64,000 nt of DNA from Prorocentrum cordatum (taxonomy: Eukaryota). Under the pieces are notes generated by a model. The model did not search any database. It was not told where the DNA came from and was given only the letters and a program-made list of their open reading frames with translations. The DNA is taken from NCBI GenBank assembly GCA_963575745.1, contig CAUYUJ010000001.1, positions 2,418,001 through 2,482,000 of the forward strand, read 5' to 3'. Below are positions 10,288-43,802 of this stretch, piece after piece. A program made the translations under genes and the position numbers. Within the stretch, counting starts at the first letter, position 1. Each line of letters begins with the position of its first letter.

Positions 10288-11640
<1,353 letters not shown>

Positions 11641-16646: not shown

Positions 16647-16851
16647 CTCGCGCTCGCGCCCGCGCATCGGGCGGGGTTGGGTCGAGATCCGGCGGATCAA
16701 CGCCGTTGAGACCGAGCAGGAGGAGCACGACGGATGCAGTAGAAGAAAACCAAAACACGTAAACATAAACTTTTGGCGCTCCGCGCGGATTTCTTGGATC
16801 CGCACCGGATCCAAGAAATCTGCTTTGTTTTTCGCAGCGCTGCCACTTTTT

Positions 16852-18999: not shown

Positions 19000-19076
19000 C
19001 TGCAGATCTGTGCCGACCTGCCGTTGTGCTCGGGGGCCTTGGTGAGCCCGCGGACGACCACGCTCACGCCCGGCGG
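19000..19076 (-). CDS. DnaJ-domain protein, exon 4 (first C-terminal repeat)
   Basis: Pyrimidine tract plus CAG acceptor, CAG|GC donor; encodes PPGVSVVVRGLTKAPEHNGRSAQIC(R), paralogous to exon 6. The 5' boundary could lie slightly upstream. Confidence 0.7.
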
Positions 19077-22250: not shown

Positions 22251-22429
22251 CAGTGCAAACCTAAGGCGCATCCACGATGCTGCCCTCCGCCGACCCCCGA
22301 TCGCCCGGGGTGAGAAGACTTGTGAGACATTTGGCTGTCCTCCCTCCCCCTGTTGCCCCTCCCCCAAGGTCCTAAATCCAGTTCGAAGGGCGGGGGACGA
22401 GCTCGTCAACGCACCCCCGTGGCCCTTCG

Positions 22430-25029: not shown

Positions 25030-25710
25030 TGGATGCAGATCATGGGGCTTCCCCCGCCCAGAATACGGAAATCTAGATTCACGAAGTTGCTGATCAGGAC
25101 AATCACGCGCAGCGGCAGAAACCAGATCTGAAATGACATGATCCTGTGTTTTTGACTGTTGCTGCCAATGTTCTGACTGTAGCATATCCGTGGGCTTCCC
25201 ATGCCCAGAAGACTGAAGACTAGATTCACGAAGTTGCTGGTCAGGACAATCACGCGCAGCAGCAGAAACCATATCAGAAATGACAAGGTCCTGTGTTTTT
25301 AACTGTTGATGCATGTGTACTAACTGTAGCATATCCTGGGACTTCCCCCGCCCAGAAGACTGATGTCTAGATTCGCGAACCTGCTGATCAGGACAATCAC
25401 GCGCAGCAGCAGCAACAAGACCTGAAATGACAGGATCCTGTGTTTTTGATTGTTGATGCCTATGTTCTGACTGTAGCATACCCGTGGGCTTCCCATGCCC
25501 AGAAGACTGAATAGAAGATTCACGACGTTGCTGATCAGGACAATCGCGCGCAGCAGCAGTAACCAGATCTGAAATGACAGGATCCTGTGTTTTTGCCTGT
25601 TGATGCCTATGTACTGACGGTAGCATATCCTGGGACTTCCCCCGCCCAGAAGACTGAGGTCTAGATTCACGAAGTGGCTGAACGGGTCGATCACGCGCAG
25701 CAGCAGAGTC
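25030..25710 (-). repeat. 147-bp tandem repeat (about 4.7 units) inside a 368-aa open frame
   Basis: CAGGACAATC at 25095, 25242, 25389 and 25536; the 49-aa units alternate GRGKSQD and GHGKPT types. Confidence 0.9.
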
Positions 25711-27394
25711 CGTCGCCTCACCCACGGGTTCAGACGAGGAATGAATTATCGAGGGCCCGTCGAATGGTTGGCAACCCGTCGCAAGGAGGAGGAGGAGGGG
25801 ATGTGGAGGAGGAGGAGGAGGAGGGGGAAGAGGAGGAAGAAACGAGGAGGAACAGGAGCAGGGGGGAGGAGGAGGTAGGAGGTGGGCACCGACACCTAGG
25901 CCTCGCAAAACCACACGACAAACATTTCGAACACTTACGAACTCTGAGACTGTCACAAATGGATCCGGCTCGAGAGGTCGCGCGTTGCGATGAACTCGGG
26001 GGCTCTGGTCGTGTCACGGCGTCGGATCCCGCTGGCCATATCCTGCGCCCTCACAGACCACCCTACAGTCATAAGGAGGCGGGGGGTGAGGATGGGCGCA
26101 GCTTTTGGCTTGCGATTGGTGTCCGATCGGAGTCTGACCTCGTTTTCCTCCGATCTCACGCACCCCCCACGGATTTCAATATCATTATGTCGGCCTGAGG
26201 GTCTAATTTTCGATTGCACGATCTATCGGTCTTACTTCTCCTTGCTAAAGAATGGACTCTACCCCACCTCGAGGTCGGCGTTATCGTGCGCCCTGCGCGT
26301 ACTGCGTTTTCCACATCAAAGCGTGAGTCCTTTCATTTCGAATGTTCTTGGTACATCATGCGGCGGGACAGTCGACCCCAACTGGCATCTCTGTCTTTTC
26401 ATACAATGAGCGCGGTTACGTGGATCACAAGCTATCATGTTCCAAGAACCCACTGCAACACATACCGCACAGTCCACCAGCGCGCGCACATGTTGCAACC
26501 ATCTTAAATACAGGACCTCATAGGACATCAGAGGAACACCACGTGATATGGCAGTCATTGGAACTCCATGTGATCTGTACGCACTTGCACCACACGATGT
26601 TGGCAGTGCATCCACTTTGATCCAGCATGCGCAACGCGCACGCAATCGTATCCAATAATACCATGCGGGCCGCATGCGAAGGCCGCCACGCGCGCGTCGA
26701 AACCAGTTAAAAACCATATGTCCCCGATGCGAGTCAAGATCGATCTAGCTAGACACATGCGAGAACCACTAATCTTATACAACATACCCTGGCAAGTGTA
26801 CAACATTTCCGCGCGCGCACTTCCTCGCCGCCCTCATCCGCTGTCAGCTGCATAACAGTACCGCCGTTCCAGGCATCGTCGCGCCCCGTCATTGCCGCCG
26901 TCGTCATCACCAGCATCAGCACAATCACCTTCGTCACCGACATCTGGACATCATCGTCGTCATCGTCGTCACCAGCCTCAGCACCGTCATTGGCCTTGCC
27001 GTCGTCGTCGTCACCATCGCCACCACCATCGATAATATCATCATCACTGCAGTCGTGGTTCACGTCGTCATGGTATCGCGCCCGTCCAAGTCACCGACCC
27101 GAGCTGAAGTGCACACGCATCAGCTCGGGCCTTGAGACGTGCTGGGAAATTCACATCGGTAATCGCCATCGCGTTCGCATCAGTTTTGCCAAACCAGCTG
27201 GTCCACCTACGAGAAAGCGTGCGCGCGCCAGTGCGGCCGCAGAACTAACACATCCAATCGGGAAACGCAATCGTGACCGAATGAGCTTTGCTAGACCACT
27301 TGCGGGTCAGCGGGTGGGATGTTTGCACGAGCAGTGGAATTGACGACTTCAACTTGTGCAAAAACCATTGTGCACCCATAGCCCCCACTACCAA

Positions 27395-27450
27395 TACATA
27401 TGCATATATATATATGTATATGTGTATGTATATGTTTATATGTTTATGTT

Positions 27451-27482
<32 letters not shown>

Positions 27483-27521
27483 CGTATACGTATATGTATA
27501 TGTATATGTATATGTATGTAT
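27395..27521. repeat. (TATATG)n microsatellite
   Basis: Seen directly. Confidence 0.95.
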
Positions 27522-28243
27522 ACGTAGCACCCCGCAATCGCGGATAAGAGTGAGGGGCCGCCGGAAGGTCTGCAGTCTGCGAGGCTCTGAAGAAGTCCGC
27601 CGCAGGCGCTTCATGTTTACAAATGATACCACGGGCCCGCCGCAGGCGCCGATTTTTCGTTAAAGCAATGTGGGTGGGTCGCCGTGTGGGTCGCGGGTGG
27701 ATCGCGGGTGGGTCGCGGGTGGGCCGCGGGTGGGTCGCGGGTGGGTCGCGGGTGGGTCGCGGGCTGGGTCGCGGGTGGCTCGCGGGTGGGTCGCCGGTGG
27801 GTTGCGGGTGGGTCGTGGGTGGGTCGCGGGCTGGGTCACGGGCGGGTCGCGGGATGGGTCGTGGATGAGTCGAGGGTGGGTCGCGGGGTGGGTCGCGGGT
27901 TTGTCGCGGTTGGGTCGCGGGGGGGACAACGCCAAGCAACAACAAACAAACACCAGCAACAACAACAACAACAATATAAACAACAACATCATCATCAACA
28001 ACAACAACAACCACGGTAACAACAACAACCGCAACATGGACAACCACAACAACACCAACCCGACCAACAACCACAACAACAATCACAACAACAACAGCAC
28101 CACCGCCAACAACAACAACAACAGCAACATAAAGAACATCAACCACCACCACCACACCAACAACAACCACAACAACAACCACAACCACAACAACACCACC
28201 AACAACAACAGCAACAGCAACAGCCTCAGCAACAGCAACAACG

Positions 28244-28280
<37 letters not shown>

Positions 28281-28869
28281 CGACGAGACTCTGCATCGCG
28301 GAATCCCACTTCAACTACGCACCCAGGGACAATGAATGACCGTCCAGAGTGAGAGGGCCGAACGGTCATTCACTGTCCCTGGGTGCGTGGCTGAAAAAGG
28401 ATCCCGCGATGCGGATTCTCGTTGCTGTTGTTGTTGTTCTTATATTATTATTGTTGTTGTTTGTTTGTTTGTTTGTGTTGCTTGGCGTCGTTTCCCCCGC
28501 GACCCGGCCCGCGAACTCGCCCGCGAACCGGCTCGCGACCCGCCCGCGACCCACCCGCGACCTCCTGCGAACCACCCCGCAACCCACCCACGACCCGCCC
28601 CACGACCCGCCCCACCTGCAACCCACTAGCGACACACCCTCGTCCCACCCGCGACCCAACCGCGACCCGGCCCGCGACCCACCCGCGACCCACCCGCGAC
28701 CCACCCCGCGACCCACCCACATCGGTTTGATGAACAAAATCGGCGCCTGCGGCGGGCACGTGGTAGAATTTGCAAGAATTAGGCGCCTGCGGCGGCCTTT
28801 CAGAGCCTGGCAGATTGCAAACGTCCCCGCCGCCCCCTCACTCTTATCCGCGACTGCGGGGTGCTACGT
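27522..28869. mobile_element. Foldback element (1.35-kb imperfect palindrome)
   Basis: Ends ACGTAGCACCCCGCAATCGCGGATAAGAGTGAGGGG and CCCCTCACTCTTATCCGCGACTGCGGGGTGCTACGT; mirrored (GGGTCGC)n and (CAA)n blocks; arms meet at an 18-nt loop at 28344-28361. Confidence 0.85.
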
Positions 28870-30079
28870 GCATCGACCTCTCCATGTACCGTTATCACAA
28901 TCTACCTGTCTTGCCGCCCGATGCACGTCTAACCCTGCCCGCGGACCTACGCCGCGGGGCAGCCCACGGGTCAACCCGCGGGACAGGCCACGGGATGACC
29001 ACGAGACAACCCACGGGACGACACATGGGACAACCACAAGGCAACCCGCGCGGCTACCACAGCACAGCCCACGGGACAACCGCTGGACATCCATGGACAA
29101 CCGCGGGATAACCGTGGGACAGCACAGGAGAGGCACTGCATGACCAGAGCAAACATTTGTTAGACCATTCGACCCTAGCCTTATGTTGCGCCCATCATAC
29201 CTCAGGAGCAAATCCCAGAACTAAGTTTGAGCACCCAGGAAATTATCGAAGCAATGTCTGCCCGATCCGCTCGCGAAGTGTCGAACTAGTATCGCCTCCC
29301 AGGGCCCGACACGTGAAAAACCTTCAGTTTCGGTACCTTCTTGGGGCTAGAGATTCTTTCTGGTGCTCCAGGCTACTAGACAATAGGCTGGAACATCATA
29401 ATCCTAGCCTTGGCCGACACATGAGCGTCATGGCGCAGCTTCGCCTCGCTGGCACGCACGACACACGTGTGCGTGTTATGGTGAAGGGTGTGGGGTGACC
29501 TCTTCTTCTCTCTCTTCTCCGCCCCTCCTGCAACCTCCTTGTGCATACCTGCAAGCAAACGGATCCTCAAACAATGTTCTGGTATCCGCTTTCACCTCGC
29601 ACTTTGCTAGCCGTTCAATGAGCACCTTGAGGTCGGTCCCATGCATCCTTCAGAGCCTCATTCACGTATTAAGCCGCAAGCTGGGATGCACCCTTCCACG
29701 GTGACCTGTAGGCCTTGCGCGGCATTGCAAGAGTTGCATCACCTTGCGGCTAGGCGGGCTTCCAGTGCTTTGCTCATAATCACCTCGGCTTTGTCAGTCA
29801 CGCGCAGATCTATGCTGTTAACTAGCCCGCCACGCTGAAACCAATGTAAACCAGGGGCACCATCCTCTCTGATCATTCCTAGCAGTCTGTCCACTCTGGC
29901 CATCAGTGCCGTGGGGCCCTGCGTGCCTCCAGGCACGGAGCCAGCGCATGCTGTGTATCACTTCTACTTCTCCTCCTCCTCCTCCTCCTTCTCCTCCTCC
30001 CCCTCCGCCTCCTCCTTTTTCACCAACTGGTCCCCGTAGTCACAGGGCGTCGAAAATAAGTAGTCGCTCTTCGGGCCCC

Positions 30080-30161
30080 AGTCCGGGCCCCCGAAGAAGG
30101 CGTTGAAGATGTTGTCGGCGTGATTTCGCGAGAAACCTCCGTGCACGCCAGGACCAGCTCC
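30080..30161 (-). CDS. DnaJ-domain protein, exon 3 (G/F region; 3' boundary approximate)
   Basis: GAG|G acceptor in phase 0 with exon 2; encodes [25 protein letters not shown] (DIF-like motif). Confidence 0.7.
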
Positions 30162-30649
30162 CTCTCCAGAGCCGCGAAAAACAGCAGGGATACCGTTTGA
30201 GACTCGCCGTCGTCGCCGCCGCCGTCGTCGTCACCGTCCTCTGGTGAGGCCCGGGGTGGAGGGGTTGACCACAGGCAGTCCCCAGAGAGGTAGTCCTGGC
30301 TAGCCTTCGCAAGCCTGCGGGGACGCCCAGAGCGGACTCCACACCGCAGCGCCGCCTCCCGCGGCGCCCCCTCCATGCGCGGAGCCTGGGGCGCCGAGCC
30401 CGCCTGGGGCTGCCCCGCTTGGGGGGCCTGCAGAGGGCAGCCAGGACGCCAGGACGCACCTCTCTGGGGGGCCTGCCTGCGCGCGCGCAGGGCCCGAGCC
30501 CTGCCAGCCAGTGGGACTCCTTGCCCCCCGGGGGAGGGCGGGGGGAGCCTGCGCGCCGCATCTCCCTCCTCCACTCCTCCTCCTGAAGAGCAGGAGGAGG
30601 AGTGGAGGAGCCTGCATCTCCCTGCCCCCGTGGCTTTGGCTGCCTCGAC

Positions 30650-30781
30650 CTCCAAGCCCGCTGGGCCGAAGGTGTCGTACCGCCTGCGCTTCTCCGGGTC
30701 TCGCAGGACCTCGTAGGCCTCGGCGACTTTCCTGAACGACGCCTCCGCAGTCTCCTTGTTCTCGGGGTTCTTGTCTGGATG
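30650..30781 (-). CDS. DnaJ-domain protein, exon 2 (HPD motif and helices III-IV)
   Basis: [49 protein letters not shown] donor. The 5' end may extend to 30798 (CAG|G). Confidence 0.9.
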
Positions 30782-31078
30782 GTCCACCTCCGCGCCTCCT
30801 GCGCGCTGCGGCGTGCTCGAGTGCCTGCTGACTTGCCTCTTGGGGCTTCTTCGACCCTCTGCGGGCGGCTCTTGCCCTCGTCGCGCCCCAGTCGTGACCC
30901 ACCCCCTTACCTCTGCCGTCCTGGCGAGCTGCCACCAAGACGACCCCACAAAGCCCCGAGACAACGCCGAGACCCTTTTCAGACGACCCGGAGGCCCGGT
31001 TCGGGGCTCAAAACATGTTCAATCTAAGGGCCATGAGAACTTATTCGGCGGTTTTGAACCAATAGCTGGAGGCTTATA

Positions 31079-31577
31079 CTAGGGCTCCCAACTTCGCGCT
31101 TCGCGCTCCGCGAAGCGCGAATAACTTCGCGCTCTCGCGCCGCCCTCCCAGAGGGAGAATAGGAGGACGAGGAGGAGGGGGAGGAGGAACGAGGACCGCG
31201 AAGCGCGAAGCGCGAATAACTTCGCGCCCTCGAGGGAGCCCTTGCTAAGGGCCATGAGAACTTATTCGGCGGTTTTGAACCAATAGCTGGAGGCTTATGC
31301 TGCAGGTCCGTGCCGTGTCGACCCTGGCGTTGGTTCCTGAAACCGCGCTGGATCGTTCAACCTTGAACGATCGGCCGTCTCCGCAATGTCCGATCGTTCA
31401 ACATCGAACGATTCTGGGCCGCCGTCGGCGTTCAACCTTGAACGTCCGCGCTGGGGTCGCCGCCGGTCGACACGACACGAACCTACCGTACAATGGAGGA
31501 CGAGGAGGAGGGGGAGGAGGAACGAGGACCGCGAAGCGCGAAGCGCGAATAACTTCGCGCCCTCGTGGGAGCCCTTG
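31079..31577. mobile_element. MITE of the 2248-2406 family: full copy 31079-31244 plus an extra 3' half ending at 31577
   Basis: CTAGGGCTCCC...GGGAGCCCTTG; CTTATA at 31073-31078 and 31578-31583. Confidence 0.7.
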
Positions 31578-31879
31578 CTTATACAATCATTATCCCCCAT
31601 CTCCTGAACTGGTGTTTCTCTTATCACTCGGACGTCCCGCCTCACCCAACACCCGCCTCCCTCGTGCACTCGCACCCACGCATGTTCAGATCCGGATCCA
31701 CCCACACACTCAGACCCACTCACTGACTCACCCGTAGCCCGACTCGCTCAAACCCACACTCGTATTCGGTCGTACTCATGATTCGCTCATACTCCAACCC
31801 ACGCAGAGTCAAACTCACTCAAACTCAGACTCACTCGTCACTCATACTTAGTCTCACTTGGACCACTGCTCACCGCGAC

Positions 31880-32660
31880 AAAGAATGCGTGGCATTTGGG
31901 CACCCCAAAGGGGAGCCGCCAAAGCAGGTGGGAACACTCCTGGATTCGCGCCCAGATCGTGGGCATGTCTCAGGCGGTTTGCCTTCTTGGGTGCCCGCCA
32001 TTCTGTGTTTTCGGAGCAGCTTGTGAGGATGTCTCAAGCAAGGCGCTGGCTTCATCACTCCCAAATGGGAACCGCCAGGGTGGGACAGTCCAGGATTCGC
32101 GGTCTCAGGCGGTTTGCTGGTTTGGGTGCCCAACATCCTCTGCCGTCGGAACAGATTGTGAGGATGTCTCAAACAAAACGCTGGTTTCAGCACTCCCAAA
32201 GGGGAGCCGCTGGGGGTGGGAGCACTCCAGGATTCGCGTCCAGTTTGTGGGGATGTTTCAAGCGGTTTGCTTGTTTGGGAACCCCTCTGCTATCGAAGCA
32301 GTTTGCGAGGATGTGTCAGGCGAGGGCGCTTGATCCAACACTCCCAGCGGGGCACAGTCCAGGATTTGCGCCCAGATTGTGGCTTCAAGCGGTTTGCTTG
32401 TTTGGGAACCCACCGTCCCTCGTGTTCGGAGCGGTCCGCGAGGATGTCTCAGGCGACGGCGTTGGTTTCAGCACTCTCAGAGGGGAGCCGCCTGGGGCGG
32501 GGACGTCCCAGGATTCGCGCCAAGATTGTGGGGATGTCCCACGCAGATTGCTTTCTGGGAACTCGTCGTCCTCCGGGCTCGGAGAAGTTCGTGAGGATGT
32601 CTCGGGCGAGGGCGCTGATTCAAGCTTTCCAAGGGGGAGCCACCATCGGTGGAAATGTCT
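31880..32660. repeat. Diverged tandem repeat (about 120-140 bp units)
   Basis: Recurring CAGGATTCGCG..GCGGTTTGC..GAGGATGTCTC blocks. Confidence 0.75.
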
Positions 32661-34079
32661 CAAATGGTTTCCGTGCTTGTGCCCCCCCAGCTATCACCGG
32701 ACGTATGCTATTCACTCACTCACACATATCCTCCGTATGCTTTTCTTCCTCCTCCTCCTCCTCTTCCTCCCCCTTCTTCCTCTTTCTAAATTCGACGCAC
32801 GCGTTTACATTCCCACTTACCTGTGGGCAGCTCTTCACCACCCAAACCCACCCAGCACATTCAGACGCACCCATATTCAGACGCATTCATACATATATTC
32901 ACTCATACACTTCGACTCACTCATACTCAGACGCACTGAAACTGATGTCCACCGCCGAGCTAATTCACACTCGGACTCACCCGAACTCGGACTCATCCAC
33001 CACCGTACCCATTCATACTCAGACCCGATCGTATTCAGGCTAACTCTTCTTCATACCCATATTCATCATACTCGTACCCATACCCGCTCGCACCCATATC
33101 CACTCACACGCGTACCCACTCGCACTCAGGCTCACTCGCACTCACAGAATCACCAATAACCAGACCCAATCACACTGAGACTCGCTCATACTCAGACACG
33201 CCGGTACTCCGACTCATCATACTTAGAATCACTCACACGCGGGTTCAACAGTCGGACTCAGTCACAATCAGACTCTCACGCTCAGAACACTAACGCTCAT
33301 ATTCTGCCCGCGCACAAGTGGCTATCGTGATATTGGCATGCGCGGCGCTTGGGTATCCCATGTGCCAATGGGCGCCACGAGTAGCACGCCAGAGAGCGGG
33401 CGTAGCAACGCCATGCGCTCTTGTCCGAATTGTCGCAATGAGAACCGCAAAAAGAATCCCTCTCGCTTTTCAACTTGTGTTTCATCCACCTTTCCTGAAA
33501 CGTTGACAAAGGAGGAAGACGTCACTGAATTCGTCGCGGTCGTCGTCGTCGTCGTCGTCGTCACTGTCGCGCTCTACGCGGACTCGCTCTCACACCCACA
33601 TGCTCACAGACATACTTCCCCAACGAGACGGGACGAGAATATGAGATCATAGATGGGGACTTTCGCGTCGAATAATTCTGGGGGCTCGAGAAATTCTCCC
33701 AGCCTCCCCCGTTCCGATCCGTGTGAGACCTGCGCCAGGATGTGCTCGTGGACGCCGACTCTCAGCCCACGCCCTGGACGCAAGACGACAACCGGTGGGC
33801 GCGGCCATTCCGTCTTCTGGAGCATGCCCGCCAATCGCTAGCCCCAGTTGTCATACGCCCACGCCTGCGATCCCATGTGGAAAACCATGTGGGATCGGAA
33901 GTTGGGGGGTGAGATCGCAGTGGAACGGAGACCCCCAACCGGGAAATCATTTCGTTTCGTTCGTGTCGTGCGTGCGGGCGAGGCGAAGCTGAGTGGGCGC
34001 GCGAGAGAAATGAACCCGCCGTTGCTAGGGCGAAATCAAGACAAATGTTTCTCCTCCGTCCGTCCGTCCGGCGGTGGCT

Positions 34080-34695
34080 TCAGCGGTGTCCCGCGGTGTC
34101 CCGTGGTGTCCCGTGGTGCCCGCCGTTGCTAGGGCGAAGTCAAGACAAATGATTCTCCCCAACCAGCCCGTCTGGCGGTGGCTCGCGGTGTCCTGCGGTG
34201 TCCCGTGGTGTCCCGTTGAGTGAAATCGATAGTGAGATCGATAGTGAGATCGATACTGAGATCGATGTGGTGCCCCGAGGTGTCCCAAAACATGAGATCG
34301 ATAATGAGATCGACAGGTGTCCCGTGGTGTCCTGTTGAGTGAGATCGATAGTGAGATCGATAGTGAGATCGATGTGGTGCCCCGAGGTGTCCCGAAAAAT
34401 GAGGTCGATAAAGAGATCGACAGGTGTCCCGTGGTGTCTCGTTGAGTGAGGTCGATAACTAGTGAGATCGATGTGGTGTCCCGAGGTGTCCTGTGGTGTC
34501 TTATGGTGTCCCGTTGAGTGAGATCGATAGTGAGATCGATAGTGAGACCGATAGTGAGATCGAGAGGTGTCCCTCGGTGTCCCGTGGTGCCCCGTCGAGA
34601 GAGATCGATAGTGAGATCGATCGTGAGATCGACACGTGTCCCGTGGTGTCCCGTGGTGTCCCGTTGAGTGAGATCGATAGTGAGATCGATTGAGT
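34080..34695. repeat. Composite minisatellite of GGTGTCCCGT (10 bp) and GAGATCGATAGT (12 bp) units
   Basis: Seen directly; repeated at 57820-58435. Confidence 0.9.
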
Positions 34696-34899
34696 CAGAT
34701 GTTGGTTCCACCCCCTCTCCTGCCCCCACAACCTCCTTATCACCCGAAGGGTGGTCGTATAGGTAGTATGGGTTTGTCACTCCTGGGTTACCCCCCCGGT
34801 GCGACGCCACGTGACGGGGACAGTTGGATGAGGGGTTTACCCCTCCCCCTCCCCTGGACCTGGAGGGGTAGTTTCGCGAGGTGTCAGAAGGCTCTTTTG

Positions 34900-35520
34900 G
34901 CCCAAGATGGCTCAAAGAGCGTTCCAGAGAGCCCAAGATGACCTCCAAGATGGCTCAAGATAGCCCAAACTGGCTCAAAATGGTTTCCAAGATGCTCCAA
35001 GAGACGGAGCCTTCCACGGAGGCCCCCGAGAGGCCCAAATCATACAAACGCACAAGAAATCAATGAGGTTTGCCTGCTCGCCTTTTTTGCTTTCGATTGC
35101 ATTCCGAGGCCCCAAGATGGCTCCATGAGAGTCCGAGAGGGCCCCAAGATAGGCCTAAGAGAGCCCCAAGACGGCCCCAAGAACGCCCAAGAGCGCCCCA
35201 CGAGCGCTCGAAGAGGGGCCCAAGAGGCGATCGTGGGGGCTTCCGAGGGGGGAGGCTAATTAAGGACCCCCCCCGTCTTTGCTCGAGCTCTTCCAAGATG
35301 GCTCCGAGAGGGCTTCTGAGGCCCCCAAGAAGCCTCCAAGAGACTCCAGAGAGGCCCCCAAGAAGCCTATACGCGCCCTCCACGAGCACCCCAAGAGGCT
35401 CCCAGCGGCATACAAGACGCCCCAAGAGGCTCGCAAGACCACCAAGAGGCCACCAAGACGCCCCAAGAAACCTCCAAACAAATTCCCAATCAACATCCCA
35501 AGAGATTCCGAAACACGTCC
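34900..35520 (+). repeat. CCAAGA-rich dispersed repeat
   Basis: GGCCCCAAGA-type subunits; relatives at 41240-42050, 42450-43000, 47600-47640 and inverted at 22700-23000. Confidence 0.75.
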
Positions 35521-35660
35521 AAAAAACGTCTGGTCTTCTGGTTGGCCTCCGCCTCTCCTCCCTCCTTCCCCTTCCGTGTCCTCCGCCTCCCTCACTTCCA
35601 TTTCCTCTTCCTCCCCCTCCTCCTCCTCCTGCTCCTCCTCCTCCACCTCCTCCCTTTATT

Positions 35661-36608
35661 CCCAATCATCCTGTGGTGTTGGGTCCTCGTTTTGAAGAGA
35701 CTGTCCCCGCGTCCCTCCTCCTCCTCCTCCTCTCCTCCTCCTCCTCCCCCTCCTCCCTCCTCCCTGCGTTTCACCCACCCAGCACACCGTTTCGTGGCCC
35801 CATCAGGGGGCTCCACTGAAGATCCCAGTGGCACCGCCCGCATGCGTCCGCCACCACCCAGCACAGCCCTTGCTCCCTGCGCTTCACCCACCCAGCACAG
35901 CGTTTCGCCACCACCCAGCACAGCCCTTGCTCCCTGCGTTCCGCCCACCCAATACACCGTTTCGTGGCCCCATAGGGGGCCCCACCGAAGGTCCCAGTGG
36001 AGCCGCCAGCATGCGTCCGCCACCACCCAGCACAGCCCTTGTTCCCTGCGTTTCGCCCACACAATACAGCGTTCGTGGCCCCATGTGGAGCTCCACAGAA
36101 AGTCCCGGTGGCACCGCCCGCATGCGTCCGCCACCATCCAGCACAACCCTTGCTCCCTGCGTTTCGCCCACCCAGTACCTCGTTTCGTGGCCCCATATGG
36201 AACTCCACCGGAGGTCCCAGTGGCACCGCCCGCATGCGTCCGCCACCATCCAGCACAACCCTTGCTCCCTGCGTTTCGCCCACACAGTACACCGTTTCGT
36301 GGCCCCATAGGGAGCTGCACCGAAAGTCCCAGTGGCACCGCCCGCATGCGTCCGCCACCACCCAGCACAGCCCTTGCTCCCTGCGTTTCGCCCACCCAAT
36401 ACACCGTTTCGTGGCCCCATATGGAACTCCACCAGAGGTCCCAGTGGCACCGCCCGCATGCGTCCGCCACCACCCAGCACAGCCCTTGCCCCCTGCGTTT
36501 CACCCAGCTAGTACAGCGCTTCGTGGCCCCATAGGGTGCGCCACCGAAGAAGATGCTCACAATTGCGGCACTCACAACTGCATTTGGTTGGGTCCTTCGC
36601 CAGGCAAA
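35661..36608 (+). mobile_element. HINE-like element, copy D (112-bp internal array)
   Basis: Same head and tail; TTCGTGGCCCC at 36072, 36184, 36296, 36408 and 36520; tail TGGTTGGGT-CCT-TCGCC-AGG-CAAA|TTTTT. Confidence 0.8.
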
Positions 36609-36929
36609 TTTTTCTTCCATCCTCCGCCTTGTTGGAGTAGGACGGCTTCCCAAACCTTAGGTTTCTCTGTATGCTCCCTCATTTATCTGATCAGGGCAAC
36701 TCGTGTGGGCATCGTCTCTACACTGACTTTTCGCCTTTTCATGTCTGATGGCCTTCCGAAGCCTCTGTCCGTCGCCGCGCTAGTGCAAGGTCCTGAATGG
36801 GCCCTCTACTGGGTGTCATGAGGCTGTTTCGAACCCTTGACATCACTGCGTGCTCATCCACATCCCTGATCAACAAGGCAATTCGCCTGGGCATCGTTTT
36901 TGGATGGGCTGCTGGGGTTACGCGAAGCG

Positions 36930-39900
36930 TCTAGAATACGCCGCCTCCCGGCATTGCCACGTGACGAATGAGAGTAGAATCGTACGGTATCGCCCCCTTT
37001 GCGTTGCCACGTGACGAACAGCACGGGCCTGTGTTTGTTTCGTTGCTCTGCGCTCCCACGTGGTAGGCAAAATGGAATCGCATTCCGCCCTGCACTCAAA
37101 TCGTCTGTTCCCTCCCCAATGCGCATGTGACGGTTCAAGCAAATTTCAATTGTTTAGCCCCTCTGGGTTGCAACGTGGCGAACAAAACGGGATCGTTTCT
37201 TTCTGCCCCCCTCCGACGAATGGAATATACCCGTATTGTCTCAGCCCCTTCGCGCTACCACGCGACGAAGAAGTGGGGTAATGCGTGTTCGTCCTCCTGG
37301 GCCGCTACGCGGCGATCGAATCATAATTGTATGTGTGGCCACCCCGTTCCTCAGACCCCCCGCGCTGCCACACGGCGGATTTTGCGCGCCAGGGTGGGAT
37401 CGCATGTTCCTGCTCCCATGCATTGACATGTGGCAAATTCCGAAACGTTTTTTTGATGAGCCCATTGGCGATGCCACGTGACGTGTGGCGTATAATATAA
37501 TTTCTTTCGTCGCTCTACACTGCCATGTGGCGACTCGAATGTAAGGTATAATTTCGCCCCCACCCCCCGAGATTCGGTCTCTTTACAACCCGAACGACAC
37601 GTTACAACCGAGATAGGTCTTTCAAACCCGCAAACAATAGAGTTGCCTGGCTGTTCTTTTGGTACCGACCATTTCACAACCAAAACAACCGATTTTACAA
37701 CCAACGCGATCACTTTACAACCCGGATGGGGCCCTTTGAAACCAAACCGACCACTTCACAACCAGCCTTCAGAAGCGCATGCGCGCTCTGCAGAGGCATA
37801 TGATCGCCTGCGCGCTTTGCAGAGGCTTCTGAGCGCCTGAGCACTTCGCAGAAGCATATGAGCGCCTGAACGCTCAGCAAAATCTTCTGGGCGCCTGATC
37901 GTTCTGCGGAGGCTTCTGAACGCCTGAGCGCTCCGCAGAGGCTTCTGAGCGCCTGAGCTACGCAAAAGCTTCTGAACGCCTGAGAGCTTTGCACAGGCTT
38001 CTGAGCGACTGAGCGCTCTGCAGAGGCATCTGAACGGCTGAGCGCTCGGCAAAGGTTTCTGAGCGCCTGGCCACTTTGCAAAGGTTTCTGAGCGCCTAGG
38101 CGCCTGGCAGAGGCCCCCGAGCGCCTTAGAGCTGAAGCCTCTGCAAAGCGAGAGCGAAAACTGTTTGCGGCGGAAAAAAAACAAACAACACATGGGAATC
38201 TGCATGCGTTGGCTAGAATTCCACCAACGATTTCGTGCGCACTTTCCGCCCCCCTGGGTACGCATGCTTCCGCAATTGAGCAACCATGCGGTTTTGCGAT
38301 TGCCAGGCAATGGGGAGCGAGGGCAAGCATGGCGTATGATGCAACAAGAACAATGTGACATCCACACGCGTTGGGTATCATGTTTCAAACGATGTCTTGG
38401 CGACATGTGTGCCCTCCTGGGTACGCATGCTACCACGGATTCGCAACCATACGGTGTTGCTATTGCCAGACGGGGGAACGCGAGAGCAAAACTTGTCTGT
38501 GAGGCCAACAACAACATATGGGCATCAACACGTAGTGGCTCGAATGTTACAATCAGCTTGCTGACAACATGCCCGCTTTCCTCGGCACGCGTGCTCTCAA
38601 TTGCGAACTCATGCGGTTTTCGTGATTGTCAGACGACGAGGCGCGAGGACGAATATGGTCGATGATTCAAAAACACCGCAATTTGAAAGCCACATGGATT
38701 GGCTAGAATGTTACAATCGATTTCGTTTCCGCAAATCCGCCCTCTTGGGTGCACGTGCGACCGCGAATGCGAAACCATATGGTTCTGCGATTGCCGAAAG
38801 ATGAGGCGCGAGAACTAAAGTTGTCTGTGAGACAAAACCAACACATTGAAATCCATGTGTATCGGTTAGAACTTTACCATCGATTTCTTGACAACATTTC
38901 CGCGCATTCCACAATTCTGAAAACATGATGATTTTCCAATGTCAGACGATGAGGCGGGATGACAAACATGGTTTCTGATGCAAGAAATCAACCATGGGAC
39001 ATCCACAAAGGTTGGCTAGAAATGTACCCATGATTTCTTGGCCACATTCCCGCTATCCTGGGTGCGCATGCTTCCGCACACGCGGACACATACGGTTGCG
39101 TCGTTGCCAGAGGATGAGGTAAGATGACAACATATGTATACAATGCAACATATATGAACACCACACGTGTTGGTTATGATTTTACCAAAAGCTTCTTGGC
39201 CACATTTCCGCTCTCTGAAAGCGCGCGTGTGCCTCTGCGCCTTTCGCGGCAAACGCTTGTAGTTCTCTATTTCCAAACGAAGCAGGCTTTTCAGGCAGAT
39301 GTTGTGCGGTTCGAAAAAAACGATGTAGATTTACGGCATGGGTGTAAAGAAACTAAAAACGCCTAGTCCTGCCACCAAATTGTAGCGTGAGGATCTTTAT
39401 TGGATCTCAATTTGGTTCAAATAGCTCCGTGTGAATACCACAAGGATAGCAATAGGACGCCAATCGTGGCACAATCTGACTCAGAAGGGACACATTTTTC
39501 TTGAGTTTCAGTTGGTTCCCGGTGGGATGCCAGTAGTCTGCCCGTATGGATCGACAAAGAAAGATTCCGATTGGATTACAATGCGATCTCCTTCGTATTC
39601 GCACATGTGGTTCTGATGGGATTCCAAGAAAGATGATCCCTACCATTTTCGAATGTACCCAGAAGAATACCCACCGTGTTTCCATTTATTGCCTCCCAGT
39701 GCGTTTCCGGCAGTATTCCACAGGAAAGCTTCTCGATTGTAACCCAATGGGGTTTCCAATCGGTTTCCATTAGAAAGGGCCCGAACGTGTTTCAATAGAA
39801 CGCATCCCTATCGGATCCCAACAGGACGCCCGCAGGCCCCATATCGAGGAATCTTGTTGGATACCAGTGGGATTAATCTGGTGCCAACCGCACCAGGATT

Positions 39901-40830
39901 CCAATCGGATTCCTGCTGGATCCCATTCGGAAGCCACTTCACATATTCTCGCTTCAGGCGGGTCACTTTACAACCAACACGCTTCAGAGAGCGAAGTGTC
40001 TCCCTTACGTGGACCCACGGAGATTTCGGACAATGAAGAACATGTGTCGCTTAGCGTTTACTCGCCTGGTTGTAAAGTGGTCTTCGTGGTTGTAAAGTGC
40101 CCTTCTGGCCGCTCTGGTTGCAATGTGACCCCCCCGCCCCACCCCCGCCGCGTTGCCACGTGATGAGTAAAAAGCGAACAATGTTTTGTTCACCCCCGCC
40201 CTGAGTTGTCACAAAACTCCTGAGTTGTCACGTGGCAAGTAAACTCGAATTGTATGTTGTCCGCATCCCCCTGCATTGCCACGTGAGAAACCAAGTATGA
40301 TAGTATGCTCTCAGCCCCTTTGCTTTGTCACGTGATGTATGGCGTCTGCTTGTCCTCTACGCTGCCATGTGGAGACTGGCGTGGAATGTTTGTTCGCCCC
40401 CCCCTGCGTAACCATGTGACAAATAAACCACAGACAAACGTTGCCATGTTGCGAGCAATGTACAATCCTATTTTGTCAGGCCCCCCCCCCTGCATTGCCG
40501 CGTGACAAACCAAATCGACCAATATGTTCTCAATCCATTTGCGTTGTCACGTGACGTGTAGCGTAGATTTGCATTTGCTTTGCCACTCCACGCTGCCACG
40601 CGGCGACTAGAATGGAATATGTATTTCGCCCCCTGGCGTTGCCGCGTGACGAAAAACTTGTACCGGTATTTGCTTAGCCCCTCTGCGTTGCCGCGCGGCG
40701 GGCACGGTGGAGTAGAATGTGTGCTGCCCGCTGGCTTTGCCGCGTGACGGACAAACAAATATGAAACAGTATGCTTTCCGCTCCTGCGTTGCCACGTGAC
40801 GTGTAGCATAGATTTGCACTCGTTTTTCTC
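36930..40830. repeat. Nested diverged satellites: GTTGCCACGTGAC units (36930-37540, 40130-40830), CTTCTGAGCGCCTGAG units (37770-38150), longer diverged units (38200-39220)
   Basis: Recurrent motifs seen directly; no coding signal. Confidence 0.7.
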
Positions 40831-40879
40831 CGTTGCGCTGCATCGGAAAAATCGCAAACGGGCCACATTGACCGACAAA

Positions 40880-41130
40880 GCAACCAACCGACCGCCCAAC
40901 CAACCAACAAATCAACACACCGACAAACCAACCGACCAACTAACCAACCGACCAACCAATCCGCCGGCGGATCAACCAACCAACCAACCAACCGATCAAC
41001 CGACCAACAACACAACCAACAAACCAACAACCCAACGGGCCAACCAGACAACCGGCCAACTATCCAACCTATCAACCAACCAATCGGGCAAGCAGCCAAC
41101 CAACCCGCCAACCGAACAACCAGGCAGCCA
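40880..41130. repeat. (CCAA)n-like microsatellite
   Basis: Seen directly. Confidence 0.85.
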
Positions 41131-43685
41131 ACATTTTCTGAGGATGTCTCACACGACGGGCAAGCCAGAATAAATATGTTCAGCCCTGTAAGAAAATAAG
41201 CCCTGACAAACAAATTGGTGTAACCATTCTCCCCTGAAGGACCACTCGAGGCCTGAAGAGCGCCCAAGAGATCCCCAATGCCCCCCAAGCTAGCCGCCAG
41301 AAGCCGCCGAGATGCGCGCGGAGGCCCAAACGATCCGCCGACCCCTAGGGGTTCATCGCCATGTGAAATGCTTCCCCCTCCCAAAACCACTCCCCCAGGA
41401 GCACAGTCTGGTCTATTTGGAGGGGGGTCCCCAGGGGAGGGGTGGAACGCGTCACGGGGGGACAGAGGGCCCCAAAACAGACCAAGAGGGCACAAAGAGG
41501 CCCTCTGGAAGGTCTAAGAGGGCCACGAGCCGCCGAAAGATCGATCTAAAACGCCCACGCTGGCCTCCAGACGGCCAAAGAGGCCCATCTGACTCCCCAA
41601 GAAGCTCTCAAGAGGCGTCCCAGAACGGTGCCAAATATCCAACATCGTCACATTCCCATGGGAAAACATGCATTTTTAGCACAATCGCTTCTTGTGTTCA
41701 CAACGCCCAAGACAGACCAAGACGCCTCCTGGATCGCCCAACGACGGCCCAAGAGGCCAAGAGGGCTGTCAGACGACCAAAGAGGGCCCCAACACCGCTC
41801 AAAAAGCCCCCAAGACGGCCCTAGGGGGCTCCAGGACAGCCCCAACATGGAGTCCAGGGGGGGAATCCAGACGGACATTTCGAGTCTTCGACCCAAAACC
41901 GCCGCCCGGTTGCCCCAAGAAGCCCCCAACAGGCTCCAAGGGAGCTCCGAGAGGCCCCCAAGAGGCTCCCAAGAGACCCCCAGGAGGCCCCCAAGAGGTG
42001 GTTCAAGAATTGCTTCCCAAACGCCCCTGAGACGCCTCCCACGAGGCCCCGTCTGCCATGGGCGTGGCCTCACACTCGCAGCCCAGGCACGGTGGCGGGA
42101 TGTCCTGAAAGCCAACATATGCCCGCCGTTAGTACACGAGGGTTCTCGTCTCGCCCGTTCCCCTATGGGTGTGCGGCGAACCCTGGAAATGTCAGCCGCA
42201 GAAAACACTACTGCTGGTGCGGGCTGTGCCGCGATTGCCGTGTGCCCCGGAGGAATCTTTGGCGAGCACGCGGTAGATTGTCCAAGAGGGCCCCGACGCA
42301 AAATCCCCTGACCCCTTGGGGTGCCATCAGCGTGTGAGATGCTTACCCCTCCCCCGACCCCTCCCCCCGGACCCTGGTCCAGTCGATTTGGAGGGAGGGG
42401 GGTCCGCCCGGATCCCCCCGGCCCGACCCGAACGCATCATGGGAGGATAGAGGGCCCCACAACGAGCCCAGAGGGCCCCAAGAGGCCCCCAAGACGGTCC
42501 AAGAGGGCCCCCATTCGCCGAAGGATCCTCCAGGACGGCCAGGATGGCCTCCAGACGGCCCAAGACGCCTCCAAGAGCCCTCCCAACAAGGCGCCAAGAA
42601 GCAAGATTCATTGATTTGCAATACGATTTTTACAGGTCTTATAGCGTTCTCGCCTTTTCGGCTTCCCTGCGCTAAACGACTGCCCAAAGGCTCCCAAGAT
42701 TCCCCCAGACGGACCCAGAGGCCTCCAAGAGGGCCCCTAAACAGGCAAAGAGGGCCCCCACACGGCCCCAAAGACGGCCTCAGAGGCCTCCAACATGGCC
42801 CAAAAGAGCCCCTAGAACACCGCAAGAAAGACCCCGAAGAGGAACTCGAGCCCGCACCGAGCCCGCATTTCGAGCCCTCGGCAACCCAAGGCTCCTAAGA
42901 AGCCTCCACGAAGCTCCAAGAGGCCCCCCATCGGCCCCCCTAAAGCGTCCAAAAAGGCACCAAGAGGCCCCGACAAGGCGCCCAAGATGCCCTCAGGAGC
43001 AACACGCCACAACCGCCAGTTCCCCAAGGGGTCGCCGTTGCGGCGTAAACCCAAGACTTTAACCTTCAAGAAGCAACGTTTCAATATTTGCTGCCTGCCA
43101 AGCTCTTCGGTCTTAAGCTACTTCAGTAGAAAACAGAAATCCATTTCTCATAGTAATCACCCAGACACGCGAAGCCGCTTAGTAAACGCACCCGAAGGAA
43201 GAACCAGTCAAACAGGGCAAGGTTTTTTCAGTAAACGCTCAGGGCCGGTAAGTAAACGCCAATAATCGGGTCTGGGTGGTTTTCCCTCCCTTGATTCAGA
43301 AAACTTCGGGGGGGCCAAAACGGCCCCGAATGGCCCCAAGCAGAGAACCCGCGACGGCACCGAGGCGGCGCAAGACTGCAACCCCCTCAAGGCAGACACT
43401 CGGGGATCTGCACGTCTTCGTTTTTCACCTGCGCCAGTGCGTGGACTTCAACTTGCCAGATGCGGTGCGTTTGATGTAGTCTGCACGTCGGCCCAATCAT
43501 ATAAACGGTCTGTTGGACCACAAAGCGTGCACGCACAATGCCTATTCCTGCTAGCCTCGCTCTTGCTCCTCTTGCTCCTCCACACCCCTCCCTTCTGGGA
43601 CATACCACGGGCCAGGTGTCGAGCGATCATGGAGCCTCCTCGATGCAGCGCCGGCACGGTGGCGGCGCTTGCCGCAGGCTGCTGG

Positions 43686-43802
43686 ATATTTCAGCGCGAG
43701 CCTCTTGTAGGCCCTGGCCAGCTCTGCGTCGGTCGTGCCCTTATCCACGCCGAGAACACGGTAGTGGTCCTTCGCCCGTAGGTCGGCAGGGCATGGTGCC
43801 AT
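43686..43802 (-). CDS. DnaJ-domain protein, exon 1 (J-domain helices I-II)
   Basis: MAPCPADLRAKDHYRVLGVDKGTTDAELARAYKRLALKY; completes the J domain with exon 2. CCAAG just 5' of the ATG may be the trans-splice acceptor. Confidence 0.88.

What the first reader, a model, noticed from the sequence alone, without database searches (positions are those of the whole stretch)
30782..43687. DnaJ intron 1 has Helitron2-like ends exactly inside the KY|HPD motif: a candidate rolling-circle element acting as an intron
Seen: removing 30783-43686 restores CTG AAA TAC CAT CCA GAC (LKYHPD) with no TSD, yet none of the four exact registers has canonical ends (AT..GG, TC..GA, CC..AC, CA..CC). On the + strand the interval starts TCCACC.. 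with a small hairpin (GCGC-CTCCT-GCGC). It ends GGCACGGTGGCGG-CGCTT-GCC-GCA-GGC-TGCTGGA|T, a subterminal inverted match to the 5' end plus a hairpin. GGCACGGTGGCGG recurs at 42086-42098, so it is a repeat-family motif. Established: Helitron2/Helentron elements have asymmetric TIRs, a 3' hairpin and no TSD. Inference: an antisense element inserted in the J domain. All six exons are still open and the interval has gathered many nested repeats, so it is probably removed from the mRNA. An in-frame G|GCAAG donor (43672) and GCAG|G acceptor (30799) lie just inside the ends and would leave a 10-aa footprint (PAACGGAEVD) before HPD. The alternative is precise non-canonical excision.
Basis: partly seen in the sequence, partly recalled or inferred. 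Interest (0 to 1): 0.88.

Follow-up and report, generated by a model that had tools for sequence, protein, structure and literature searches.

The report
Odd-ended giant intron in dinoflagellate DnaJ
A 12.9-kb stretch splits the essential HPD motif of a chaperone-helper (DnaJ) gene of the red-tide alga Prorocentrum cordatum without any normal splice signals, yet messenger RNAs join the two halves perfectly; it does not look like a Helitron transposon, and how it is removed is unknown.

Summary
The core observation holds. On the minus strand, removing exactly 12,904 nt (30783-43686) joins LKY to HPD. None of the four protein-compatible registers has GT/GC/GA..AG ends. The window is Prorocentrum cordatum.

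Five of five transcript-type proteins that span the site (MMETSP, Logan, three JGI) read LKY|HPD exactly. None carries the proposed 10-aa footprint. The other five in-window introns of the gene all have a GT/GC/GA..AG register. No single micro-exon rescues canonical junctions.

The public gene model skips exon 1, and no other protein among 5.8 billion holds the exon-1 peptide. So this locus is probably the source of those mRNAs.

The Helitron2 reading is not supported:
- the 3' end is not CTRR;
- the target is neither A|T nor T|T;
- the "asymmetric TIR" is a 5-nt match;
- the 13-mer recurs once, with unrelated flanks;
- none of 54 ORFs matches a Rep/helicase.

A strong hairpin 16 nt from one end and a 4-bp terminal inverted repeat are real but weak signals.

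Best reading (about 0.45): a genuine intron removed at non-standard boundaries, resembling the non-canonical introns of Amoebophrya. Main rival (about 0.3): the mRNAs come from another gene copy. No RNA reads could be examined.

The parts
43687..43802 (-). Exon 1, coding part: the ATG to the first two bases of the Tyr codon. It encodes helices I-II of the J domain up to LKY.
   Evidence: Pfam DnaJ profile positions 1-30. Identical to residues 1-39 of P0002/P0122. 86% nt identity to the mRNA of a related species, L001, with the alignment ending exactly at 43687.
30783..43686 (-). Intron 1, 12,904 nt, given in the TC..GA register. The equivalent registers shift by -1, +1 or +2 nt. No GT/GC/GA donor and no AG acceptor in any register.
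   Evidence: 4 registers. (0 micro-exon solutions). (0 of 54 ORFs of at least 100 aa match a transposase, Rep/helicase or RT; 2 match only a low-complexity PT repeat). (no Rfam family of interest at E up to 1). (many tandem arrays inside).
30650..30782 (-). Exon 2: the last base of the Tyr codon, then HPDKNPENK through helices III-IV of the J domain.
   Evidence: Pfam DnaJ positions 29-63. 100% identical to P0002 residues 40-83. 92% nt identity to L001, starting at 30783.
43643..43670 (.). GC-rich hairpin 16 nt inside the exon-1 side of the interval.
   Evidence: Arms 43647-43657 and 43659-43669 are 91% complementary. The terminal 45-mer folds at -15.1 kcal/mol, top 0.5% of window 45-mers.
30791..30805 (.). 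Small hairpin (5-bp GC stem, 5-nt loop) 8 nt inside the exon-2 side of the interval.
   Evidence: Read. The terminal 45-mer folds at -8.6 kcal/mol, reached by 9.4% of random 45-mers, so it is not unusual.
33710..40260 (.). Middle of intron 1, repeated at 100% identity at 57450-64000, directly after the N gap.
   Evidence: 6,551 nt, 100%; N run at 57350-57449.
30162..30649 (-). Intron 2, GT..AG, 488 nt, with a repeated boundary.
30033..30161 (-). Exon 3.
21877..30032 (-). Intron 3, GA..AG, 8,156 nt.
21760..21876 (-). Exon 4.
19077..21759 (-). Intron 4, GC..AG, 2,683 nt.
19000..19076 (-). Exon 5.
16647..18999 (-). Intron 5, GC..AG, 2,353 nt.
16584..16646 (-). Exon 6.
5147..16583 (-). Intron 6, GC..AG, 11,437 nt.
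5042..5146 (-). Exon 7. Its donor side also looks odd (see Noticed in passing). The gene continues beyond the window start.

Best explanation
The interval is intron 1 of an intact, expressed J-domain (DnaJ-like) gene of Prorocentrum cordatum. The gene spans more than 44 kb and has very long, repeat-filled introns. The pre-mRNA is transcribed through the 12.9 kb, and the whole 12,904 nt are removed so that LKY and HPD are joined exactly.

No register offers a G at the first intron base together with AG at the end, so removal cannot follow the usual dinoflagellate GT/GC/GA..AG rule. I infer a non-standard route. It could be an unusually tolerant spliceosome, or a structure-guided process of the kind proposed for the non-canonical introns of the parasitic dinoflagellate Amoebophrya. 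Weak pairing of the two ends (TCCA/TGGA plus an imperfect duplex) and the strong hairpin next to the 5' junction are candidate guides.

Shown: the geometry, the intact exons and the exact join in mRNAs. Inferred: that those mRNAs come from this locus, and any mechanism. How the DNA got there is unknown, and it is not a recognisable Helitron.
For: 1. Exact join. All 5 transcript-type proteins spanning the site (P0002, P0123, P0124 from JGI on 1.1-1.7-kb contigs; P0122 from MMETSP; P0125 from Logan) read LKY|HPD. The sixth cluster member is C-terminal only.
2. Same allele. P0122 and P0123 share the window's exon-7 variant (Met), and every exon segment that tblastn aligns without intron read-through is 100% identical. 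All 246 codons of exons 1-7 are open, and the exact-match joins (run with P0002) reproduce the protein across all six junctions. P0002 differs from the window by one residue (Val for Met).
3. The rest of the gene is ordinary. 5 of 5 other in-window introns have a GT, GC or GA..AG register with repeated boundaries. This matches the published P. cordatum usage of GT 24.7%, GC 51.4% and GA 23.8% (PMC10666404, passages).
4. No other source is visible. The only NCBI P. cordatum protein matching exon 2 at 100% is P0001, which skips exon 1. The exon-1 peptide occurs only in the P0002 and P0003 clusters among proteins of 203-2000 aa, and in none of 63-202 aa. The published annotation pipeline allowed only GT/GC/GA donors, which explains why the model fails exactly here.
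5. No canonical rescue. There are 0 single micro-exon solutions, and the intron ends are not decayed exon copies.
6. Precedent. More than 60% of RNA-supported introns of Amoebophrya A25 and A120 have no fixed terminal dinucleotides (PMC7789003, passages).
7. The interior carries repeats shared with other introns of the gene, as expected for an old intron.
Against: - Transcript nucleotide sequences of P. cordatum were not obtainable, so origin from this locus rests on protein identity and on the absence of another annotated copy.
- The assembly is incomplete and locally redundant: there is a 6.5-kb 100% duplicate next to a gap.
- Two transcript variants exist (Met/Leu and Val/Val). They could be paralogues rather than strain alleles.
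- The 5' UTR carried by P0123, which is conserved in the related mRNA L001, is not found in the 20 kb of the window upstream of exon 1. It would need a long 5'-UTR intron.
- From recalled knowledge, the spliceosome requires matching first and last intron bases (G..G or A..C). None of the four registers offers this.
- Complementarity between the two ends is not significant: duplex -26 kcal/mol, reached by 9% of controls.
- Non-GN..AG introns have not, in my searches, been reported for core dinoflagellates (listings and passages only).
Confidence: 0.45

Rival explanations
1. The perfect mRNAs come from another gene copy or allele that is missing from, collapsed in, or unannotated in the assembly. 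This locus would be a copy in which 12.9 kb of repeat-rich DNA was inserted bluntly into the J-domain exon, for example by capture at a double-strand break or by a TSD-less element. It would make no functional J protein. At best it makes the 10-aa-footprint form through the cryptic GC..AG pair, or the exon-1-less form annotated as P0001.
For:
- P. cordatum is described as rich in gene duplicates (PMC10666404, passages).
- Two transcript variants exist.
- The P0123 5' UTR is absent from the window.
- The assembly is locally redundant.
- An in-frame cryptic GC donor and AG|G acceptor lie just inside the ends.
- A second junction of this locus (intron 7) also disagrees with the transcripts by 1 nt.
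Against: - All seven in-window exons are open, and all segments aligned without read-through are identical to P0122. A dead copy carrying two junction lesions should also carry several amino-acid changes.
- No protein with the intact N-terminus is annotated for P. cordatum, although the pipeline was transcript-guided.
- The insertion neither lost nor gained a single base of coding sequence, which is unusual for end-joining capture (inference).
- No footprint isoform appears among 5 transcripts.
Confidence: 0.3
2. One reading: the interval is a Helitron2/Helentron-type rolling-circle transposon, inserted antisense, that now serves as the intron.
For: - No TSD.
- The interval starts with TC on either strand.
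- A strong GC hairpin lies 16 nt from the + strand 3' end.
- There is a 4-bp terminal inverted repeat.
- Helitron-derived introners exist in other eukaryotes, at about 1% of classified introner families (PMC12130899, passages).
Against: - The 3' end is TGGA on both strands, not CTRR. Shifting to CTGG breaks the reading frame.
- The flanking host bases are G and T on the + strand, or A and C on the minus strand, not A|T or T|T.
- The 'asymmetric TIR' is 5 nt, whereas about 12-15 nt are expected (recalled), and it is at chance level.
- The 13-mer's second copy has unrelated flanks.
- No second copy of either end occurs in 64 kb.
- 0 of 54 ORFs match Rep, helicase or any transposase.
- The interior is a mosaic of tandem arrays and of repeats shared with neighbouring introns.
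- Even if true, it would not explain removal from RNA without splice sites.
Confidence: 0.04
3. Assembly artefact: the junction sequences are wrong, for example a missing G at each end, which would give GT..AG, or the 12.9 kb is wrongly placed. In that case the real intron is canonical.
For: - Adding one G at each end of the TC..GA register would give GT..AG (read).
- The intron 7 discrepancy is also cured by one extra G.
- The scaffold carries a gap and a redundant 6.5-kb block.
Against: - It needs two independent single-base errors at exactly the two junction positions.
- The two 6,551-nt copies are 100% identical, which argues for a low local error rate if they were assembled independently.
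- No frameshift occurs in 740 coding nt.
- A misjoin would not fall exactly at both exon ends (inference).
Confidence: 0.08

Closest known systems
Non-canonical introns and introner elements of Amoebophrya sp. A25/A120 (Syndiniales dinoflagellates; Farhat et al. 2021, PMC7789003, passages seen)
   Same: A dinoflagellate nuclear intron with no conserved terminal dinucleotides. The mRNA shows precise removal. There are short direct repeats near the boundaries and some complementarity between the two ends. No transposase lies inside.
   Different: - Those introns are short (analysed at 40-1000 nt, mean 120-240 nt); this one is 12.9 kb.
- Their introner subset has 8-20-nt inverted repeats and 3-5-nt direct repeats overlapping the borders. 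Here the best perfect inverted match is 7 nt, and the 6-nt direct repeat is 3 nt out of register.
- They make up more than 60% of introns in a parasite that apparently lacks U1. Here it is 1 (perhaps 2) of 7-8 introns in a free-living core dinoflagellate whose other introns follow GT/GC/GA..AG.
Standard core-dinoflagellate introns: GT/GC/GA..AG(G) with identically repeated intron boundaries (Mendez et al. 2015, PMC5032977, abstract and two sections seen; Dougan et al. 2023, PMC10666404, passages seen)
   Same: Same organism, same gene, same large size class and the same repeat-rich content as introns 3 and 6 of this gene.
   Different: No G[T/C/A] donor, no AG acceptor and no AGG. The repeated boundary is only 1 nt.
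Helitron-derived introners (Gozashti et al. 2025, PMC12130899, passages seen)
   Same: A mobile element without TSD sitting in a coding exon and absent from the mRNA.
   Different: Those were classified by homology to known Helitrons, family-wide conserved termini and the expected target bases. They are described as generating functional introns. None of these criteria is met or testable here.
Nonconventional introns of euglenids, and AG..AC/AT introns of Fritillaria borealis. The euglenids are recalled; Fritillaria is mentioned in a PMC7789003 passage.
   Same: Nuclear introns that lack GT..AG and are nevertheless removed exactly.
   Different: Different lineages. Those classes have their own recurring end motifs or end-pairing rules, which I could not test on a single example.

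Membership tests
Helitron (canonical) | 5' terminus TC (feature recalled) | tested here: met
   In the TC..GA register the interval starts with TC on both strands. This has low information value.
Helitron (canonical) | 3' terminus CTRR (recalled) | tested here: not met
   Both strands end in TGGA. CTGG exists 1 nt inside the + strand end, but using it would leave a frameshift relative to the mRNAs.
Helitron (canonical) | Insertion between host A and T, without TSD (recalled) | tested here: not met
   There is no TSD (met), but the flanks are G|..|T on the + strand and A|..|C on the minus strand.
Helitron (canonical) | GC-rich hairpin about 10-20 nt from the 3' end (recalled) | tested here: met
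   The hairpin at 43643-43670 lies 16 nt from the + strand 3' end, folds at -15.1 kcal/mol and is in the top 0.5% of window 45-mers.
Helitron (canonical) | Rep/helicase ORF, or membership of a multi-copy family with the same termini | tested here: inconclusive
   0 of 54 ORFs of at least 100 aa match Rep/Hel. No second copy of either end occurs in the window. A genome-wide search is impossible because no genome is held.
Helitron2 / Helentron | Asymmetric terminal inverted repeat: the 5' end complementary to a 3' subterminal stretch of about 12-15 nt (recalled) | tested here: not met
   Only CCACC/GGTGG match. The longest perfect inverted match within 60 nt of the ends is 7 nt, reached by 25% of controls.
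Helitron2 / Helentron | Insertion between T and T (recalled; PMC12130899 quotes TT and TC targets for one family) | tested here: not met
   The flanking bases are G/T or A/C.
Core-dinoflagellate spliceosomal intron | GT, GC or GA at the 5' end and AG at the 3' end | tested here: not met
   0 of 4 registers fit. 5 of 5 other introns of the gene fit.
Core-dinoflagellate spliceosomal intron | Identically repeated boundary of 2-9 nt containing (A)GG (PMC5032977) | tested here: not met
   There is only 1 nt of nucleotide-level ambiguity and no GG.
Core-dinoflagellate spliceosomal intron | Absent from the mature mRNA of this locus | tested here: inconclusive
Amoebophrya-type non-canonical intron / introner element | RNA-supported junction without GT..AG | tested here: inconclusive
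   Supported at protein level only.
Amoebophrya-type non-canonical intron / introner element | 8-20-nt inverted repeat joining the two ends | tested here: not met
   7 nt perfect. The 30-nt end duplex is -26 kcal/mol against a control mean of -16.5 (sd 7), and 9% of controls are as good.
Amoebophrya-type non-canonical intron / introner element | 3-5-nt direct repeat overlapping the exon/intron borders | tested here: inconclusive
   ATCCAG is present at both borders but 3 nt out of register with the junction. A repeat of at least 6 nt occurs in 336 of 5000 random pairs.
Introner (multi-copy intron-creating transposon) | Many near-identical copies forming introns in unrelated genes | not testable with these tools
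   No genome is held and no copy of the ends occurs in the window.
Group I / group II self-splicing intron | Ribozyme core detectable by covariance model | tested here: not met
   Rfam scan of 30000-44500 at E up to 1 gave only spurious miRNA-type and snoRNA-type hits on a palindrome in intron 2.

The most novel reading that the evidence does not exclude
Free-living core dinoflagellates, not only the parasite Amoebophrya, can remove introns whose ends are not GN..AG. They would do so by a route that does not read the terminal dinucleotides, such as pairing of the ends, hairpins, or an altered spliceosome. Intron 1 of this DnaJ gene, and possibly intron 7, would be the first examples. Such introns would be systematically missed, because dinoflagellate annotation pipelines accept only GT/GC/GA donors. 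The DNA may have arrived as a TSD-less, hairpin-ended element.
Probability: 0.4. Interest if true: 0.8.

Novelty: new variant of a known kind. Interest (0 to 1): 0.55.

Why it matters
If the 12.9 kb is really removed from this locus's RNA, P. cordatum has a splicing capacity outside the GT/GC/GA..AG rule on which all dinoflagellate gene prediction is built. Three things would follow:
- gene models, like the public one for this gene, are wrong wherever such introns occur;
- the unexplained removal mechanism of the non-canonical introns of Amoebophrya becomes testable in a culturable, sequenced, free-living species;
- one route of intron gain, blunt insertion without splice sites, becomes plausible.

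If the rival is right, the finding is an ordinary disrupted gene copy, plus a warning about assembly redundancy.

Tried and rejected
- Whole genome: none is held. The genome-wide search for the terminal motifs was therefore impossible.
- Transcript nucleotides: the one scan of metagenome contigs returned 68 loci but not the P. cordatum transcript itself. The best hit was L001, the mRNA of a relative (83% aa identity). It shows TAC CAC at the junction.
- Micro-exon rescue: 13 candidate GT/GC/GA donors in the last 60 nt of exon 1 were combined with 8 AG acceptors in the first 60 nt of exon 2, scanning the whole intron. There were 0 solutions, even with free flanks.
- Nested or recursive splicing and a 'stwintron': rejected by reasoning, because the bases touching the exons stay T/A/C..A/G/C whatever is removed inside.
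- U12-type AT..AC: ATATCC sits at the donor, but using it with the AC at the acceptor loses 2 or 4 nt and breaks the frame (read). Farhat et al. state that the minor spliceosome is absent in other Alveolata.
- TSD model with ATCCAG: it would leave KYPDK, without the His, which contradicts 5 of 5 transcripts.
- Decayed duplicate exons at the intron ends: local alignment scores were no better than shuffles, with 88 of 500 and 112 of 500 shuffles reaching the observed score.
- IRE1-type or tRNA-type (bulge-helix-bulge) cleavage: CNGCNGN-like strings exist near both ends, but cutting there does not give the observed join. Rejected by reading the sequence; the motif is recalled.
- Group I/II ribozyme: no Rfam hit.
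- Earlier scan notes: three look-ups gave nothing relevant.

Full report
**What the window is.** The DNA is GC-rich (about 0.58) and full of tandem arrays. The exon-2 ORF is 100% identical to NCBI protein P0001, an "unnamed protein product [Prorocentrum cordatum]" on a 3.56-Mb contig. The organism is therefore a free-living, bloom-forming core dinoflagellate. No whole genome is held for the window.

**Check of the observation.** On the minus strand, the ORF 43551-43898 matches Pfam DnaJ profile positions 1-30. The ORF 30020-31018 matches positions 29-63. I mapped the 324-aa transcript-type protein P0002 onto the window and required an exact translation. That gives one solution for the first junction: 12,904 nt are removed. 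Only four registers fit (AT..GG, TC..GA, CC..AC, CA..CC).

At nucleotide level these are two pairs, giving TAC or TAT for Tyr, each with a single ambiguous base. So there is no target-site duplication and no repeated boundary. The 13-mer recurs at 42086, but 0.2 hits are expected by chance and the flanks of the two copies are unrelated.

**What the gene looks like.** Seven exons lie in the window, and the gene runs off its start:

| Intron | Coordinates | Ends | Length |
|---|---|---|---|
| 1 | 30783-43686 | none canonical | 12,904 nt |
| 2 | 30162-30649 | GT..AG | 488 nt |
| 3 | 21877-30032 | GA..AG | 8,156 nt |
| 4 | 19077-21759 | GC..AG | 2,683 nt |
| 5 | 16647-18999 | GC..AG | 2,353 nt |
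| 6 | 5147-16583 | GC..AG | 11,437 nt |

Each of introns 2-6 has 3-8 equivalent registers, that is, repeated boundaries. This is exactly the published pattern. P. cordatum donors are GT 24.7%, GC 51.4% and GA 23.8%, with a mean intron of 4.7 kb (PMC10666404, passages). Identically repeated intron boundaries are described in PMC5032977 (abstract and sections 11 and 15). So a 12.9-kb repeat-laden intron is normal here. Only its ends are abnormal: 5 of 5 sister introns are canonical and this one is not.

**Do mRNAs join the two exons?** The 90% cluster of P0002 has six members. Five span the junction:
- P0002, P0123 and P0124, from JGI contigs of 1.1-1.7 kb;
- P0122, from MMETSP;
- P0125, from Logan.

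All five read LKY|HPD with nothing in between. The sixth member is C-terminal only. P0122 and P0123 carry the window's own exon-7 variant (Met). Every exon segment that tblastn aligns without running into an intron is 100% identical to them. P0002, P0124 and P0125 differ by Val at that residue. None shows the proposed 10-aa footprint.

The mRNA of a related species (L001, 83% aa identity) aligns to the window up to exactly 43687 and resumes at exactly 30783. It has TAC CAC at the join.

**Is this locus the source of those mRNAs?** I could not test this directly. The indirect evidence favours yes:
- The only NCBI P. cordatum protein that matches exon 2 at 100% is P0001.
- P0001 skips exon 1 and reads into HPDK from inside the intron. 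It adds an exon from 25627-25716 and reads the last exon in the +1 frame.
- The published pipeline accepted only GT/GC/GA donors. A transcript with this junction could therefore not be modelled.
- The exon-1 peptide occurs nowhere else among 5.8 billion proteins. It appears only in the P0002 and P0003 clusters at 203-2000 aa, and in none at 63-202 aa.
- All in-window exons are intact.

Evidence against:
- Two transcript variants exist.
- The assembly is locally redundant.
- The 5' UTR seen in P0123 and conserved in L001 is not in the 20 kb upstream of exon 1. Similarity stops at an AG three bases before the ATG, which fits a 5'-UTR intron.

**Canonical rescues that fail.**
- No single micro-exon within the interval restores the protein. 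I combined 13 donors with 8 acceptors and found 0 solutions, even with free flanks.
- Nested or recursive splicing cannot help, because the bases that touch the exons are fixed.
- An AT..AC reading of the ATATCC at the donor breaks the frame.
- The ATCCAG direct repeat is 3 nt out of register. As a TSD it would leave KYPDK without the His.
- The intron ends are not decayed exon copies.
- No ribozyme is detectable.

**The Helitron reading.** The defining features below are recalled, except the target and TSD remarks in PMC12130899.

Met:
- a TC start;
- no TSD;
- a strong hairpin 16 nt from the + strand 3' end (-15.1 kcal/mol, top 0.5% of window 45-mers).

Not met:
- CTRR at the 3' end (both strands end in TGGA);
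- an A|T or T|T target (the flanks are G/T or A/C);
- an asymmetric TIR (a 5-nt match; the longest inverted match of 7 nt is reached by 25% of controls).

No support:
- 0 of 54 ORFs of at least 100 aa match Rep, helicase, transposase or RT;
- no second copy of either end occurs in the window;
- the interior is a mosaic of tandem arrays and of repeats shared with introns 5 and 7.

A 4-bp terminal inverted repeat TCCA..TGGA is mildly unusual, occurring in 91 of 5000 random pairs. I therefore do not file the interval as a Helitron. In any case, a Helitron origin would not explain removal from RNA.

**Best explanation and rivals.**
1. **A genuine intron removed at non-standard boundaries (about 0.45).** The closest precedent is Amoebophrya A25/A120. 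There, more than 60% of RNA-supported introns lack fixed end dinucleotides, and a subset has paired ends and short border repeats (PMC7789003, passages). This intron differs in size, in lacking an inverted repeat of at least 8 nt, and in sitting among canonical introns in a core dinoflagellate.
2. **Another gene copy supplies the mRNAs, and this locus carries a blunt insertion (about 0.3).** Intact exons and the missing annotated alternative count against it.
3. **Junction base errors or a misplacement in the assembly (about 0.08).**
4. **Helitron2 (about 0.04).**

**A second odd junction.** Exon 7 ends at 5042 or 5043. All six cluster members read DEA-RGRY. P0001 reads the same downstream exon one base out of frame. 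Combining these, the true junction would be C|GC..CA or CG|CT..AG, that is, one G away from GC..AG. The acceptor lies outside the window, so this is inferred. It is either a one-base assembly error or a second non-standard junction. The 100% identity of the two 6.5-kb copies argues against a high local error rate, if the copies were assembled independently.

**Novelty.** In three full-text searches (listings, plus passages of seven papers) I found no report of non-GN..AG introns in core dinoflagellates. Aranda et al. note some donor sites starting with C in one Symbiodiniaceae annotation (PMC5177918, passage). The searches are not exhaustive, and no supplements were opened. If the main reading is confirmed, this is a new variant of a known kind. 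If the rival holds, it is an ordinary disrupted copy.

Noticed in passing
window 33710-40260 and 57450-64000; N run 57350-57449: A 6,551-nt block in the middle of intron 1 is repeated at 100% identity, starting on the first base after the 100-N gap and running to the window end (offset 23,740). It is either a redundant contig scaffolded upstream or a very recent tandem duplication. The latter would place a second exon 1 about 3.4 kb beyond the window.
   Followed up: partly
window 5038-5046 (minus strand), exon 7 / intron 7 donor: Transcripts need the junction CG|CT..AG or C|GC..CA, one G short of a canonical GC..AG. The public model P0001 takes the GC donor and ends up in the +1 frame of the last exon. 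The acceptor is outside the window, so this is inferred from P0001 and P0122.
   Followed up: partly
window 30783-30862, 25627-25716; protein P0001: The public gene model for this locus appears mis-built. It lacks exon 1 and reads about 26 residues of the intron-1 3' end into HPDK. It inserts a 30-aa exon from a 147-nt tandem repeat in intron 3, and it has a frameshifted C-terminus. Its first 53 residues are not encoded in the window.
   Followed up: partly
window 30565-30611 (intron 2): A near-perfect palindrome of about 21 bp per arm lies close to the 5' end of the 488-nt intron 2. It drew spurious miRNA-family hits in Rfam. This resembles the inverted repeats used to define introner elements in P. 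cordatum.
   Followed up: no
window 27436-28730 (intron 3): A large inverted structure: arrays of an 11-12-nt GC-rich unit at 27706-27999 and, inverted, at 28421-28718 (80% identity) flank long (CAA/TTG)-type microsatellites and a short central hairpin.
   Followed up: no
window 47988-49667, 52422-54189, 50929-52217, 16971-17923, 10395-11430: There are G-skewed, AT-richer satellite blocks (GC 0.39-0.42, GC skew +0.55) on both sides of a roughly 90-nt-period array. That array is an inverted relative of the array in intron 5 (77-80% identity). Another 90-nt-period array lies in intron 6.
   Followed up: no
L066 2040-2250: An unidentified eukaryote's genomic contig encodes a related J protein with a GT..AG intron exactly 3 nt upstream of this position (AA|G TAT CAT). 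Introns therefore occur next to the HPD codons in other lineages.
   Followed up: partly
protein P0123, residues 1-22: The read-through N-terminus starts with LAQG. This is what the 3' end of the dinoflagellate spliced leader would encode (leader sequence recalled, not checked), so this contig is probably a full-length trans-spliced mRNA. Its 5' UTR resembles that of L001 but is not found in the window.
   Followed up: partly
window 31081-31244 ~ 2250-2406; 35654-35834 ~ 16846-17033: Dispersed repeats (83-89% identity) are shared between intron 1 and other introns of the same gene.
   Followed up: no
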